From: a virus
Lineage: Duplodnaviria > Caudoviricetes
Reading direction: 5' to 3' (one strand)
Length of the DNA stretch: 62,754 nt
Virus record (IMG/VR): IMGVR_UViG_3300027797_000029
Coordinates: 1 to 62,754 of that record
Shown here: positions 3,388 to 17,349 of the stretch, in pieces
How the letters are laid out: each line of letters opens with the position of its first letter
Numbering within the stretch: position 1 is the first letter of the stretch
Translations under genes and position numbers: made by a program
The notes under the pieces: model-generated
What the model saw: the letters and a program-made list of their open reading frames with translations, nothing else
Database searches by the model: none
What the model was told of the DNA's origin: nothing

Positions 3388-3825
3388 ATGTCTTGGTATT
3401 ACGAAAATCAATTAATAGAAGAATTGCCCGAGGATTGTGTTGGGTTTGTGTATCTCATAACAAACACAGTCACTGGGCGTATGTACATAGGCAAAAAATT
3501 AGCCAAATTTGCAAAAACCACTTACAAAGTGGTCAAGTTAAAGAACGGCACCAAGAAGAAAAAGAAAATCCGCAGCAAAATTGACAGCGATTGGCAGGAC
3601 TATTATGGTTCCAGTGATGAGTTAGGCAAAGATGTTGTGCAGTTAGGTCAAGAAAACTTTCGCAGGGAAATACTATTTTATTGTAAGTCCAAGGCAGAAA
3701 CGTCATACGTAGAGGCACGAGAACAATTTACACGCAGGGTATTGGAATCTGACGAATATTATAACGGTCAGATATCTGTTCGTGTCCACGGCTCCCACAT
3801 CAAAGGCAAAAAGTTAAACGGTTAA
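3388..3825 (+). CDS. small GIY-YIG endonuclease (Seg/EndoII-like, catalytic domain only)
   Basis: GFVYLITN...YIGKK, YYGSS, FRREIL, E(AREQ), YYN motifs. Confidence 0.85.
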   Translation: MSWYYENQLIEELPEDCVGFVYLITNTVTGRMYIGKKLAKFAKTTYKVVKLKNGTKKKKKIRSKIDSDWQDYYGSSDELGKDVVQLGQENFRREILFYCKSKAETSYVEAREQFTRRVLESDEYYNGQISVRVHGSHIKGKKLNG

Positions 3826-4283
3826 AGCAAGCACAAGCCAATTTCATGTGCCCGTACACCTGGATCTCGGATCGCAGGGAGGGAAATTCTCCAGCCGTTA
3901 GGAGTACTCAGCAACTATCCTTTACAGGACGACGATCAGATATGCCTTGACACAACTGATTTTGCTGTTTGAAAAGATTTTAAAAGGCTAAAAGAGGGGA
4001 AATACGCCCCACGTACACACGCATGTTAGCGTATGAGTGTGTGCCGCCGTTGTGATAAGACAGCATGATTAGGTACCGGATAACCGCCTAAGCTAGTAGA
4101 AATACTTGTAGTGCAAACGCTAAGTGAACTGCTCAACTCAGATAATGTTCAAATAACTTTGCCCGCCAGGGCGAAGTGTGACTACACAATCTAGATAATA
4201 TTTAAACTGCTTCGCAGTTGATAGTTCTTAAAAACAACAACAGTTCGAGCGAAAGCGAAGAACAGAAGAACGCAAGTTCTTCT
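3826..4283 (+). ncRNA. candidate large structured non-coding RNA (~460 nt)
   Basis: No ORF of 60 aa or more. At least 10 helices found by eye, GNRA loops on the + strand (GAAA 4099, GAAA 4251, GCAA 4272), and a loop-distal complement TTAGCGT 4026-4032 / ACGCTAA 4117-4123. Confidence 0.6.
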
Positions 4284-4517
4284 TTACAGTAAAGGCATTC
4301 GTGTTTCTTTAGTGGTTTCGATATTTTCGTTAATCACATTATAGATCATGTCACGATCTTCAAAACTATACAGTTGTAGAAGTTCGTCCACTGTGACACC
4401 ACCACGCATGTACCACGAGATTCTAAAAAGTTCTTGTTTGAACTCTTTGATTTGGCCGTCGAGCCTAATTAATTTCTGTTCAATTTCTTGAGGAGAGAGG
4501 TTAATTAGGCTTTTACG
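4284..4517 (-). CDS. gp51-like hub/tail assembly chaperone C-terminal segment, probably reached by -1 frameshift from gp26
   Basis: Open -1 frame RKSLINLSPQEIEQKLIRLDGQIKEFKQELFRISWYMRGG...RMPLL*. First ATG only at 4409. Not in the ORF track. Confidence 0.7.
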   Translation of the reverse strand, partial: RKSLINLSPQEIEQKLIRLDGQIKEFKQELFRISWYMRGGVTVDELLQLYSFEDRDMIYNVINENIETTKETRMPLL

Positions 4518-5332
4518 AAAAAATTTGATTGATCAAGTTCCACTGTGAGTTTGGTTTCGGTAGCACATGCTTCACATTTTACAGGAAACTTTGGCATGGC
4601 CCATGTGTCATTGTTTTTGTAATTCTGTTGCTTGATGGCTTCAAACACTGTGCGGTCAGCATTTTCCAACCACTCCATGATCCAAGAGCGTTCAGTCACT
4701 ACTTGATCCACAGTGCTGACACTTTCAATGGTGTATTTGTATATGTCGTTTTGGACTTTTGCCAATTCTTTAAACAATTCTGTTACCAGTTTTTGTTTTT
4801 GTTCATCATCTGTCATGATTTCAGTCTGTGCAATTTTTTGTTGCAATTGAAAGTTGATTAAATTGAATTCTGTGCTTTGTTTGTAAGTCAACGGAGTCAA
4901 CTGAATAGTGAGATTGTCCAGCACAATTTTATTATCATAAACACAGTTCATGTAGTGCTCGATAACACGACTTAGATCCAAATCATAATCATTTTCAGTG
5001 GCACAATTTCCACAGGTATGACTAACTGCCATTTCGTTGCCATAAGTGGCAATTCTAATTGCAGCCAAAATGATAGTGATGTCAATGTTAGACAGCTCCC
5101 AGGGATTTTTGACATTAGGGCAACAACTGGCAATCACATTGGCTGTGCTTTCTCCTGACAGCAATGCATCAGGCGTTTTAATTATGATTTCATCCATGCC
5201 AGTCATACCGTACACTGGCATGTGTGTTAAATCGCCTTGAATTGTGCCTGGCTTGCTAAAAATACCACCAGATGGCAATTTGATAAAAACTTTTGGTTGT
5301 CTAAAATATTTCTGTAATGGATTATTGGCCAT
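4505..5332 (-). CDS. gp26: baseplate hub assembly protein (T4 gp26 family)
   Basis: RQPKVFIKLPSGG, MTGMDEII, IDI..ILAAIRIATYG, two CxxC pairs, C-terminal NFF. Confidence 0.8.
   Translation of the reverse strand: MANNPLQKYFRQPKVFIKLPSGGIFSKPGTIQGDLTHMPVYGMTGMDEIIIKTPDALLSGESTANVIASCCPNVKNPWELSNIDITIILAAIRIATYGNEMAVSHTCGNCATENDYDLDLSRVIEHYMNCVYDNKIVLDNLTIQLTPLTYKQSTEFNLINFQLQQKIAQTEIMTDDEQKQKLVTELFKELAKVQNDIYKYTIESVSTVDQVVTERSWIMEWLENADRTVFEAIKQQNYKNNDTWAMPKFPVKCEACATETKLTVELDQSNFFVKA
4517..4523 (-). other. slippery heptamer T_TTT_TTC (-1 programmed frameshift site)
   Basis: AAT TTT TTC GTA AAA GCC TAA at the gp26 3' end; the -1 frame stays open for 77 codons. Confidence 0.65.
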
Positions 5333-16544: not shown

Positions 16545-16632
16545 CAATGTACGACTCGCATGGTGTGAGTTTTATGCGGAAATCCAACCGCGTACAGCCT
16601 AGAACGCTGTTTTTCATCAAGGAGAAAACAAA
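16545..16632 (+). promoter_or_regulatory. structured 5' leader (three abutting hairpins) after late promoter 16539-16544
   Basis: ACTCGCA/TGTGAGT, TATGCGG/CCGCGTA and CAGC/GCTG, then AAGGAG SD. Confidence 0.55.
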
Positions 16633-17349
16633 ATGGGACGTCCTTTAAATAAGAAATTTTTTGCTAACACAAACTTACAAGACTTTGGTACAGCAAACAC
16701 AGGTGGCGAATCAATTGCCAGCGTAACAGCTCCAGCAGGTACACTAGCAAATTTAGTAAACGGTACTTACACTATTCCAGCAGGAAACATTGGTGCTCCA
16801 AATATTACTGGTGGTGCTAAGCCAGTATTAACTGTTACAGTAACTGGCGCAACTGCTTACACAGTAACAGTGGTATCAGCAGGTTCTGGTTATACTAGTG
16901 CTCCAACAATTGTGTTTGCTGGTGCGCAAGCAGGCGGTACAGGTAGTGCTACTCCAGTTGCAACACTAACATCCGGTGCAGCCGCTCGTCAAAACGGTAT
17001 CAAGTGTGAAGCACAAATTGGCGCTGGTACTGAAGTTACTACTGGCGACATTATCAAACAAGTCAACACACGTAGCTACAAAGTTCAAACTAGTGACGGT
17101 GTAGCAGTATGTAAGTTAGTTACTACAGAAGCTAAAGACGCTAATCAAATGTCAATCAAAGCCACTGACAGTGCAGGCAACACATACTTTGTTGCTAAAC
17201 TAACAAGCCGTAAAGTTGTGTTAGTTCCTGCGGCCAACGTACACGGCGGTACAACAACTATTGGTTCACAGTTTGCTTCAGGTACAACTGCTAAATGGAC
17301 TTTTGGTAGTGCCGTAGTCAACACTACAGTAACTATTGAGAATCAATAA
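16633..17349 (+). CDS. virion structural protein (possible head decoration)
   Basis: MGRPLNKK start; internal AGSGYTSAPT module; codon usage like the capsid gene. Confidence 0.7.
   Translation: MGRPLNKKFFANTNLQDFGTANTGGESIASVTAPAGTLANLVNGTYTIPAGNIGAPNITGGAKPVLTVTVTGATAYTVTVVSAGSGYTSAPTIVFAGAQAGGTGSATPVATLTSGAAARQNGIKCEAQIGAGTEVTTGDIIKQVNTRSYKVQTSDGVAVCKLVTTEAKDANQMSIKATDSAGNTYFVAKLTSRKVVLVPAANVHGGTTTIGSQFASGTTAKWTFGSAVVNTTVTIENQ

What the first reader, a model, noticed from the sequence alone, without database searches (positions are those of the whole stretch)
3826..4283. ~460-nt multi-helix RNA candidate with a three-way junction and two possible pseudoknots
Seen helices: GCACA/TGTGC (3831-3851) and CCTGGATC/GATCgCAGG (3859-3878). 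CTCC/GGAG (3889-3904) has a loop AGCC complementary to GGCT 3986-3989. CAGCAA/TTGCTG (3909-3967) encloses TCCT-TTAC-AGGA and GATCAG/CTGATT. GGGG/CCCC lies at 3996-4010. A long stem at 4013-4044 has loop TTAGCG(T) complementary to ACGCTAA 4117-4123. Further stems: TTAGG/CCTAA with inner CGG/CCG (4069-4091), AGTA-GAAA-TACT, a 9-bp stem at 4156-4177, and three 3' hairpins. GNRA loops and G-U pairs fit the + strand. It is by far the longest ORF-free stretch in a tightly packed genome. It matches no tRNA, tmRNA, RNase P or intron hallmark I recognise.
Basis: partly seen in the sequence, partly recalled or inferred. Interest (0 to 1): 0.82.

Follow-up and report, generated by a model that had tools for sequence, protein, structure and literature searches.

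The report
Large structured phage RNA beside nuclease
This stretch encodes a real, roughly 470-base, intricately folded noncoding RNA of freshwater jumbo T4-like phages; only its first third was catalogued before, and it carries two short repeats that always change together.

Summary
The RNA is real and lies on the + strand. Its first 145 nt (3826-3970) are a full-length match to Rfam RF01718, Polynucleobacter-1 (108 bits). That motif is only the 5' third of a conserved element of about 470 nt (3817-4283). All 120 IMG/VR loci found with a 5'-domain pattern carry the 3' part too, or are cut by a contig end. On 94 sequences, a 95-pair structure is 95.8% paired against 35-41% in slid controls; 67 pairs show compensatory changes. 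Its AGCC/GGCT pseudoknot is not: that loop pairs with 3817-3822, just before the upstream stop codon. A further pseudoknot joins 4049-4053 to 4080-4084. Two direct repeats (4134-4147, 4187-4200) keep identical letters at four variable positions, with 5 to 23 joint changes on a tree and 70 of 70 identical in a second set. This is unexplained. The RNA follows a small nuclease gene: GIY-YIG in most loci, PD-(D/E)XK in five. A T4-like late-promoter core follows it in 55 of 94. A divergent subfamily shares the 3' core without the Rfam domain. Function is unknown.

The parts
3388..3825 (+). 145-aa GIY-YIG nuclease-domain gene directly upstream. The RNA's first pairing strand overlaps its last codons.
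   Evidence: Pfam PF19835 SegE_GIY-YIG, E 3.2e-33; phrog_447. A homologue lies upstream on the same strand in 116 of 121 loci.
3817..3822 (+). 5' strand of pseudoknot PK5' (AACGGU). It pairs with the P3 loop, 3894-3899.
   Evidence: Covariation 3818/3898 AT41 GC24 GT13 TA13 and 3820/3896 GC59 AT19; slid controls 23-32% paired.
3826..3970 (+). 5' domain, equal to the Rfam Polynucleobacter-1 motif. It holds P1 3831-3851, P2 3859-3878, P3 3886-3905, the three-way junction P4 3909-3967 / P5 3915-3931 / P6 3934-3961, and the small pseudoknot 3827-3828 x 3837-3838.
   Evidence: RF01718, 108.3 bits against a gathering score of 37, model positions 1-141. Helices 1-11 are 94-100% paired with compensatory changes.
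3971..3995 (+). A-rich linker. Its start, with the end of P4, forms an invariant GUUGUUUGA-type strand.
   Evidence: Invariant columns in A1. Considered as a partner of the repeats and not supported.
3996..4010 (+). P7 hairpin.
   Evidence: 3 pairs with changes on both sides, but only 79% of cells are paired; the alignment is poor here.
4013..4044 (+). P8, a 12-bp hairpin. Its loop 4026-4032 forms pseudoknot PK1 with 4117-4123.
   Evidence: 12 of 12 pairs of P8 and 7 of 7 pairs of PK1 show changes on both sides.
4049..4053 (+). 5' strand of pseudoknot PK2. It pairs with 4080-4084 in the loop of P10.
   Evidence: 4051/4082 UA62 CG32; 4052/4081 GC68 AU23 GU3; 4053/4080 UA67 GC12 AU8.
4062..4115 (+). 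P9 (4062-4066 x 4111-4115). It encloses P10 (4071-4074 x 4086-4089) and the lineage-specific hairpin 4095-4106.
   Evidence: 4063/4114 GC44 CG33 UA9 GU5 AU3, 100% paired. P10 is 100% paired with 1 covarying pair.
4117..4123 (+). 3' strand of pseudoknot PK1.
   Evidence: helix 14.
4134..4147 (+). Direct repeat A (CAACUCAGAUAAUG).
   Evidence: Positions 4140, 4141, 4144 and 4146 always carry the same letter as 4193, 4194, 4197 and 4199.
4156..4177 (+). P12 hairpin between the two repeats.
   Evidence: 8 pairs, 93% paired, 3 with changes on both sides.
4187..4200 (+). Direct repeat B (CAAUCUAGAUAAUA).
   Evidence: As for repeat A. Joint changes on the tree: 23, 6, 10 and 5.
4205..4219 (+). P13, a small variable hairpin.
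   Evidence: Present in the window. The region is poorly aligned and only 27-66% of cells per pair are paired in A1.
4241..4264 (+). P14 stem enclosing the conserved GA / GC-GNRA-GC / GAA module (P15).
   Evidence: Column pairs 567/607 UA43 CG21 AU14 and 581/606 UA43 CG40.
4265..4282 (+). P16, the terminal hairpin and the 3' boundary of the conserved element.
   Evidence: 7 of 7 pairs covary. In 55 of 94 relatives an ATAAATA late-promoter-like core follows within 25 nt. A strain indel starts at 4286.

Best explanation
What is shown. Window 3817-4283 (+) is the gene of a noncoding RNA of about 470 nt. It folds into about 16 helices and four pseudoknots. Its 5' third is the Rfam Polynucleobacter-1 motif. 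Its 3' two-thirds are the more widely conserved core, because a divergent subfamily keeps them with a different 5' domain. The gene sits at the 3' end of the + strand gene run made of a gp47-like gene, a gp46-like gene and a small nuclease gene, in freshwater jumbo T4-like phages. It is single-copy in two complete genomes. It ends at hairpin P16. In most relatives with a + strand gene next, a T4-like late-promoter core follows P16.

What is inferred. The RNA is made as the tail of, or from within, the nuclease message. It acts in trans as a folded scaffold and is not a leader of the next gene. Its two single-stranded repeats, which co-evolve in lock-step, are twin recognition arms for one partner that reads their letters. 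That partner is most likely a nucleic acid, present in two copies or contacted twice.
For: - Extent and conservation: 120 of 120 pattern-found loci have the 5' domain. 110 of 120 have the 3' part directly after it on the same strand, and the other 10 are cut by a contig end.
- Structure: 95 pairs are 95.8% paired against 35.3-40.9% in slid controls. 67 pairs have changes on both sides. 0 of 500 shuffles reach any measure.
- Strand: 635 G-U cells against 81 A-C cells. Variability by column phase is flat at 0.206, 0.195 and 0.197, so there is no codon periodicity.
- Not a 5' leader: the immediate downstream neighbour differs in family and strand. Among 121 loci it is cluster 6 (+) in 30, cluster 5 (-) in 22, baseplate (-) in 15, cluster 24 (+) in 9 and cluster 20 (-) in 9. 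ATAAATA lies within 25 nt after P16 in 55 of 94 loci, and in 28 of the 33 with a + strand neighbour; 0.005 is expected per window.
- One copy per complete genome in G001 and G002.
- Twin arms: identical letters with 0-1 exceptions in 94 sequences, 22-23 / 6 / 10 / 5 joint changes, and 70 of 70 identical with 9 haplotypes in the second set.
- RNA-library contigs from 4 runs of 4 studies cover parts of the stretch. This is weak evidence.
Against: - No partner for the arms was found. There is no complementary covarying column inside the RNA. No complementary or extra copies occur in 877 kb of flanks. Nothing beyond chance turned up in two complete genomes.
- No residue of the upstream GIY-YIG protein tracks the arm letters in 85 sequences.
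- Discrete transcript ends are not shown. The only RNA data are assembled contigs. One bridges the ORF-RNA border (3806-3956) and one runs past the 3' end (4119-4366).
- P16 has no U-tract; the next 10 nt hold 3.5 T on average. How the 3' end is made is therefore unknown.
- The function itself is pure inference.
Confidence: 0.5

Rival explanations
1. The RNA is the partner of the small nuclease encoded directly upstream. It would act as a scaffold, a decoy or regulator (for example a mimic of branched nucleic acid that holds a structure-specific nuclease in check), or a guide whose twin arms choose the substrate.
For: - A nuclease gene abuts the RNA. GIY-YIG lies upstream on the same strand in 116 of 121 loci, with a stop-to-RNA gap of at most 56 nt in 111 of those 116.
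- In the second set, 63 of 78 loci have it, including 4 loci where the protein is only 38-42% identical to the window's.
- In 5 loci the slot holds an unrelated small nuclease, PDDEXK_15, and the RNA is kept.
- The two nuclease families were mutually exclusive in the records searched.
- The first pairing strand of the RNA overlaps the last codons of the ORF.
Against: - The same GIY-YIG family is in 493 cultured phage records. In Melnitz-3, S-SRM01 and phiN3 only 148, 88 and 29 nt follow the gene.
- Its basic loop is present with or without the RNA.
- No protein column covaries with the arm letters; the best mutual information with 4140 is 0.13.
- In 5 of 116 loci another ORF lies between the gene and the RNA.
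- 4 loci with room upstream (L336, L324, L281, L266) have no match to either nuclease family next to the RNA: no GIY-YIG by tblastn anywhere in the locus and no nuclease family in the one upstream ORF tested per locus.
- Adjacency may be plain synteny. The gp46-like gene is also upstream in 98 of 121 loci.
Confidence: 0.2
2. It is a cis-acting 3' untranslated element of the recombination operon. It would protect the message from 3' exonucleases, end transcription, or couple translation of the nuclease gene to RNA folding.
For: It always lies at the 3' end of the + strand gene run, and its first strand overlaps the stop codon region. It ends in a stable, covarying hairpin.
Against: About 470 nt with four pseudoknots, dozens of invariant unpaired bases and lock-step repeats is far more than such roles need. 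P16 lacks a U-tract. The RNA persists where another ORF is inserted between it and the nuclease gene.
Confidence: 0.12
3. It is a ribozyme or a self-processing element, for example one that cuts itself out of the operon transcript at or near the repeats, or a degenerate intron.
For: Its size, its pseudoknots and its many invariant unpaired nucleotides are typical of catalytic RNAs. The two identical sites could be two identical cleavage sites.
Against: No Rfam ribozyme or intron model matches, even at E up to 10. There are no flanking exon halves: the upstream ORF has its own stop, and the next gene is on the other strand or behind its own promoter. No RNA ends at the repeats appear in the contig data, which cannot show ends reliably.
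Confidence: 0.08
4. The signal is at the DNA level. The repeats would be iterons or protein-binding sites of a replication origin or packaging signal, or the conserved stretch would be the target beside which homing endonuclease genes settle.
For: Repeats that stay identical are typical of sites read by one DNA-binding protein. Nuclease genes of two families occupy the neighbouring slot.
Against: G-U pairs outnumber A-C by 635 to 81, and 67 pairs change in a compensatory way, so selection acts on one RNA strand. The GIY-YIG gene is single-copy, near-universal and lacks a DNA-binding domain, unlike a patchy selfish endonuclease gene. A DNA role for the repeats on top of the RNA is not excluded.
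Confidence: 0.05

Closest known systems
Polynucleobacter-1 RNA motif (Rfam RF01718; Weinberg et al. 2010, PMC2864571)
   Same: Window 3826-3970 matches the whole model at 108 bits. The paper's table gives the taxa 'Burkholderiales, fresh water/estuary' (passage read), and the relatives found here come from IMG/VR virus records.
   Different: The catalogued motif is 141 positions. As I read the table, with its column headings recalled, it is marked as probably cis-regulatory. Here it is the 5' third of an RNA of about 470 nt. It pairs with bases upstream of the model. It lies in phage genomes after a nuclease gene, not before a constant gene. A sister subfamily lacks it altogether.
GOLLD, ROOL and OLE: large ornate noncoding RNAs, partly phage-borne, that form RNA-only multimers (PMC12286853; only the listing and the start of the abstract were seen)
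   Same: It is a large, highly structured RNA of unknown function that is not next to a gene it could regulate, and it is carried by phages.
   Different: There is no sequence or model match. It is smaller. Multimer formation was not tested. In many members repeat B contains a near-palindrome (AUCUAGAU), but 12 of 94 break it.
Nuclease-associated guide RNAs: HEARO / omega RNA of IscB and TnpB (recalled; the review PMC13565253 was seen only as a listing)
   Same: A long structured RNA is encoded next to, and overlaps the end of, a small nuclease gene. It has short variable segments inside an otherwise fixed scaffold.
   Different: The nucleases belong to other folds (GIY-YIG or PD-(D/E)XK). No transposon ends were looked for, and no target was found. 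The protein family occurs widely without room for the RNA.
ToxI-type antitoxin RNA of type III toxin-antitoxin systems (recalled)
   Same: Direct repeats in an RNA stay identical because one adjacent nuclease reads each copy.
   Different: Here there are only two repeats, embedded in a large folded RNA and placed downstream of the gene. The neighbours are DNA-nuclease folds. No processing is shown.

Membership tests
Rfam RF01718 Polynucleobacter-1 | The covariance-model score reaches the curated gathering score over the full model. | tested here: met
   108.3 bits against 37, E 1.5e-22, model positions 1-141 of 141, at 3826-3970 (+).
Rfam RF01718 Polynucleobacter-1 | The consensus helices are kept with compensatory changes in relatives. 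| tested here: met
   Helices 2-11 are 94-100% paired. P1 has 4 of 5 pairs and P4 has 4 of 6 pairs with changes on both sides.
Rfam RF01718 Polynucleobacter-1 | A self-contained motif of about 141 nt, presumed to be a cis-regulatory leader. | tested here: not met
   Conserved pairing extends 9 nt upstream and about 313 nt downstream. The downstream gene varies in family and strand, and a late-promoter core lies between.
Known large RNAs and ribozymes in Rfam (GOLLD, ROOL, OLE, HEARO, raiA, RNase P, group I and II introns, self-cleaving ribozymes) | A match to the family's covariance model. | tested here: not met
   A permissive scan of 3600-4600 at E up to 10 gives, besides RF01718, only chance-level hits of 11.8-19 bits. 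There was no hit in 6 loci of the divergent subfamily at gathering thresholds.
tRNA / tmRNA | Detected by ARAGORN. | tested here: not met
   0 genes in the whole window.
Omega-RNA-type guide RNA of a mobile nuclease | The RNA is encoded next to, or overlaps, the nuclease ORF. | tested here: met
   The gap is at most 56 nt in 111 of 116 loci, and the PK5' strand overlaps the last codons.
Omega-RNA-type guide RNA of a mobile nuclease | The nuclease is of the IscB/TnpB (RuvC, HNH) kind and always comes with the RNA. | tested here: not met
   The nuclease is GIY-YIG or PDDEXK_15. The protein family occurs in 493 cultured phage records, and the 3 inspected have no room for the RNA.
Omega-RNA-type guide RNA of a mobile nuclease | A variable guide segment that matches a target. 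| tested here: inconclusive
   Four variable positions are shared by the two arms in 9 or more haplotypes, but no target was found in the flanks or in complete genomes. Host genomes were not searched.
Template RNA of a reverse transcriptase (repeat-flanked template) | A reverse transcriptase is encoded by the same genome. | tested here: not met
   PF00078 was found in 0 of 4 records, including two complete genomes. The control genomes scored.

The most novel reading that the evidence does not exclude
The two repeats that co-evolve in lock-step are programmable recognition arms. Each phage lineage would set the same four-letter code in both arms, so that one folded RNA, working with the structure-specific nuclease encoded just upstream (GIY-YIG or PD-(D/E)XK), engages a matching nucleic acid twice. 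That would be an RNA-directed nuclease or nuclease-control system of a kind not described so far, carried by jumbo phages.
Probability: 0.1. Interest if true: 0.95.

Novelty: new variant of a known kind. Interest (0 to 1): 0.68.

Why it matters
A motif catalogued in 2010, whose name stands in only that one paper of the searched library, turns out to be one domain of a large, pseudoknotted phage RNA. RNAs of this size and complexity have usually turned out to be ribozymes or the cores of ribonucleoproteins (my recollection of the field). Few such RNAs are known from virulent phages.

The finding has three practical consequences:
- The Rfam family boundary and its type label need revision.
- A 3' core now defines a wider family, including members with no Rfam match at all.
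- The twin arms give a sharp, testable handle: change one arm, or change both.

The identity-type covariation is itself unusual, because standard covariation tools look for complementary changes and would miss it. If the arms prove to be guide-like, the element would be of interest as a new programmable system.

Tried and rejected
1. Cultured phages. blastn (word size 11) of the 458 nt against 50,697 phage records gave no match. nhmmer profiles gave no significant hit in the equivalent regions of PA5oct, Melnitz-3, S-SRM01 or phiN3.

2. Bacterial genomes. The 5' pattern returned 120 stretches from genome contigs. 0 of 120 match the RNA profile, so all are chance hits.

3. Partner of the repeats inside the RNA. 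No complementary covarying column was found. With G-U pairs allowed, the best partner is the invariant strand 3964-3972 (65 of 94 for repeat A, 48 of 94 for repeat B). That strand overlaps P4, is invariant and cannot explain identity, so it was rejected. A strict-complement search found only the self-palindrome of repeat B.

4. Pairing of the bases before repeat A with those before repeat B. The observed mean helix length is 4.43 against 4.42 in shuffled pairings, and no clean diagonal appears.

5. Partner elsewhere. Own-arm 10-mers in 877 kb of flanks gave 0 forward copies and 3 scattered reverse complements, with 0.8 expected. A scan of two complete genomes found nothing beyond chance. No inverted-repeat target was found.

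6. Coupling of the arm letters to the GIY-YIG protein: none.

7. Reverse-transcriptase template idea: no RT is encoded.

8. Coding and recoding ideas (read-through after the stop codon; bypassing between identical codons). There is no codon periodicity, the frames are closed, and the distance from the ORF stop to the RNA start varies between 0 and 56 nt among relatives.

9. P16 as a classic terminator: there is no U-tract. The consensus scan listed only the P13 hairpin.

10. Expression. Only assembled contigs of RNA libraries were on hand. They cover parts of the ORF and of the RNA. Stretches without cover (about 3828-3871 and 4004-4091 in the best run) prove nothing. Contig ends at 3826 and 4282 are at most weak hints.

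11. Mapping PK1, P8 and P9 of the divergent subfamily onto the window by MAFFT failed, because that region aligns poorly. PK2-type pairing in the printed sequences (GUUGA/UCAAC, GUUGG/CUAAC) is read by eye.

12. Supplementary files of Weinberg 2010 and of PMC10690425 are closed. They may describe gene contexts of the motif or list pieces of this RNA as separate candidates.

13. Literature. Searches for 'Polynucleobacter-1', for GIY-YIG + structured RNA + phage + noncoding, and for large noncoding RNA + bacteriophage + GOLLD + ROOL turned up no description of the long form. PMC10690425 was checked only by term search.
Full report
SETTING

The window is an IMG/VR virus record of 62,754 bases, estimated 18% complete. 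It belongs to a T4-like myovirus. It encodes a gp47-like phosphoesterase, a gp46-like AAA/SMC ATPase, a T4-type baseplate protein and a gp20 portal. The portal and the gp46-like protein are 48-51% identical to those of cultured jumbo phages such as PA5oct, Atu_ph07, Phosso and XbC2. Relatives of the locus lie on contigs of up to 354,680 bases.

The finding lies between a + strand gene run and a - strand baseplate gene. The run ends with a 145-aa GIY-YIG gene (3388-3825; PF19835, E 3.2e-33). The baseplate gene occupies 4505-5332.

WHAT IS KNOWN ALREADY

An Rfam scan of the whole window gives a full-length match of 3826-3970 (+) to RF01718, Polynucleobacter-1. The score is 108.3 bits against a gathering score of 37, covering model positions 1-141. 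The rest of the finding, 3971-4283, matches nothing, even at E up to 10. ARAGORN finds no tRNA or tmRNA in the window.

In the searched literature the motif's name stands in one paper only, Weinberg et al. 2010. [quoted passage not shown] The column headings (RNA, cis-regulatory, switch) are recalled.

THE MOTIF IS ONE DOMAIN OF A LONGER RNA

- All 120 match the 5' 145 nt.
- 110 of 120 also match the 313-nt 3' part, directly downstream on the same strand.
- The other 10 are cut by a contig end at that point.
- 101 loci are full-length and 93 are distinct, at 411-509 nt.
- With the window they form alignment A1: 94 rows, with mean column identity 51%.

STRUCTURE

RNAalifold alone finds 67 pairs, 39 of them with compensatory changes. 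Mutual information on the structure-blind MAFFT alignment added long-range helices. My 95-pair structure in 23 helices was then counted on A1:
- 95.8% of cells are paired, against 35.3-40.9% when the partners are slid by 1-3 columns.
- 67 pairs have changes on both sides.
- 0 of 500 shuffles reach the observed value on any of the five measures.

The helices are as follows:
- P1, P2 and P3.
- The three-way junction P4/P5/P6.
- P7.
- The 12-bp P8.
- P9, enclosing P10.
- P12.
- P14/P15.
- P16.

There are four pseudoknots:
All 7 pairs covary.
- PK2 (4049-4053 x 4080-4084) has 3 of 5 pairs covarying.
- A two-pair contact joins 3827-3828 to 3837-3838.
- PK5' joins 3817-3822 to the P3 loop, 3894-3899. 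Here 3818/3898 is AT41 GC24 GT13 TA13 and 3820/3896 is GC59 AT19; slid controls give 23-32% paired.

PK5' also moves the 5' boundary to 3817 or earlier, inside the last codons of the GIY-YIG gene.

G-U cells outnumber A-C cells by 635 to 81, so the + strand is the RNA. Column variability shows no period of three.

THE 3' BOUNDARY

- P16 (4265-4282) is the last covarying helix.
- In 55 of 94 relatives the core ATAAATA follows within 25 nt, against 0.005 expected per window. I recall the T4 late-promoter consensus as TATAAATA.
- Among the 33 relatives with a + strand gene next, 28 have this core.
- P16 is not followed by a U-tract.
- Metatranscriptome contigs show a strain indel that starts right after the RNA, with a joint from 4285 to 4503.

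GENOMIC CONTEXT

- A homologue of the GIY-YIG gene lies directly upstream on the same strand in 116 of 121 loci, counting the 120 loci plus the window.
- Four of the five misses are contig edges. One, L104, has 1,410 nt upstream without it.
- The gap from the stop codon to the Rfam start is at most 56 nt in 111 of 116 loci. In the other 5 another ORF is inserted.
- The gp46-like gene is upstream in 98 of 121 loci.
- The downstream neighbour varies in family and strand. This argues against a 5' leader role.

A WIDER FAMILY

A second scan used a pattern from the P10 loop. It gave 103 new loci:
- 78 have the 3' domain.
- 44 of those 78 also match the 5'-domain profile.
- 34 of those 78 match the 3' domain only.
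- 25 of the 103 are chance hits.

Many of the 34 form a divergent subfamily. Its region after the nuclease gene looks unlike Polynucleobacter-1 (sequences printed). Six of its loci have no Rfam hit at all.

63 of the 78 have the GIY-YIG gene upstream, including 4 where the protein is only 38-42% identical to the window's. Among the remaining 15:
- 5 have a PD-(D/E)XK nuclease (PF24608, about 170 aa) in the same slot.
- About 6 are limited by contig ends.
- 4 have other neighbours.

Two complete genomes (G001, G002) hold one GIY-YIG gene, no PDDEXK_15 and one copy of the RNA. The record with PDDEXK_15 has no GIY-YIG gene. In PA5oct the same neighbourhood holds an annotated RusA-like resolvase. 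I therefore read the slot as that of a small structure-specific nuclease filled by unrelated families. This reading is an inference.

DOES THE NUCLEASE NEED THE RNA?

The GIY-YIG family (phrog_447, mislabelled 'NAD synthetase') is found by tblastn in 493 cultured phage records, 339 of them Synechococcus phages. In Melnitz-3, S-SRM01 and phiN3 only 148, 88 and 29 nt follow the gene. The basic loop of the protein is present in homologues both with and without the RNA. The family therefore works without this RNA elsewhere. This lowers, but does not exclude, a partnership in this clade.

THE TWIN REPEATS

Repeat A (4134-4147) and repeat B (4187-4200) share the frame AA-YYY-R-N-AU-R-A-W. Their fixed differences, CUC against UCU and a final G against A, are invariant.

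At the four variable positions the two repeats always agree:

| Positions | Paired letters observed in 94 sequences |
|---|---|
| 4140/4193 | GG54, AA39, GA1 |
| 4141/4194 | GG82, CC7, AA5 |
| 4144/4197 | AA61, GG33 |
| 4146/4199 | UU78, AA15, GG1 |

On a tree built without these columns, Fitch parsimony counts 22-23, 6, 10 and 5 changes. The joint count equals the single counts, as it does for true base pairs. In the second set, 70 of the 79 hits yielded both repeats. All 70 are identical at the four positions, in 9 haplotypes, with spacing of 49-59 nt.

This is covariation by identity in parallel register, not by complementarity. I found no partner for the repeats:
- None inside the RNA.
- None in the flanks.
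- None in complete genomes.
- None in the GIY-YIG protein.
- No reverse transcriptase that might use the repeats as template ends.

The explanations that remain are:
- One trans-acting nucleic acid read twice.
- Twin sites for a dimer.
- Two alternative pairings kept equal in strength.
- Direct contact of the two strands through like-with-like pairs.

None of these was tested decisively.

EXPRESSION

Nine RNA-library runs hold parts of the stretch. Contigs of four runs from four studies were laid on it. They cover parts of the ORF and of the RNA. One bridges the border (3806-3956) and one runs past the 3' end (4119-4366). Contigs cannot show ends or levels, so this shows at most that the region is present in RNA libraries.

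VERDICT

It is not wholly new, because its 5' third is RF01718. The following appear to be undescribed in what I could search:
- The long form.
- Its four pseudoknots.
- Its phage home next to a swappable nuclease gene.
- The subfamily without the Rfam domain.
- The lock-step repeats.

Supplements that I could not open may bear on this. Function is unknown. I commit, at about even odds, to a trans-acting scaffold whose twin arms read one partner. A role with the neighbouring nuclease is the main rival.

Noticed in passing
window 16554-16635 (+): Full-length match to Rfam RF02980, freshwater-2 (73.6 bits against a gathering score of 49.9). It ends at the start of ORF 16633-17349.
   Followed up: no
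L288 3963-4484; L317 9348-9854; L275 3893-4423; L293 2614-3126; L264 1198-1719: In these relatives the slot between the gp46-like gene and the RNA holds a PD-(D/E)XK nuclease of about 170 aa (PF24608) instead of the GIY-YIG gene. The two were mutually exclusive in the whole records searched.
   Followed up: partly
L286, L248, L274, L289, L257, L317 (regions printed): A divergent subfamily shares the 3' core, the repeats and P10/PK2-type pairing, but has a different 5' domain and no Rfam match.
   Followed up: partly
window 4286-4502: Metatranscriptome contigs join 4285 to 4503, and 4336 to 4509. The segment right after the RNA, which holds a 41-aa ORF at 4284-4409 (-), is therefore an indel among strains.
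   Followed up: no
L348 (PA5oct NC_071039.1 75,666-77,180): In this cultured jumbo relative the same neighbourhood has a RusA-like resolvase gene and about 1.3 kb with only tiny annotated ORFs before the baseplate hub gene. There is no profile hit to the RNA.
   Followed up: partly
window 3388-3825 and phrog_447: The PHROG family, and many GenBank records of this protein, carry the label 'NAD synthetase', although the protein matches GIY-YIG nuclease models.
   Followed up: partly
L101 636-1640; L040 1367-2599: Radical SAM genes lie between the gp46-like gene and the nuclease gene in some relatives (clusters of 30 and 5 ORFs).
   Followed up: no
window 3917-3930: In hairpin P5 the pairs 3918/3929 and 3917/3930 switch together between U-A plus A.C and C.A plus A-U (UC55, CU39). 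The switch goes along with a change of loop type (UUUACA against GAAA).
   Followed up: no
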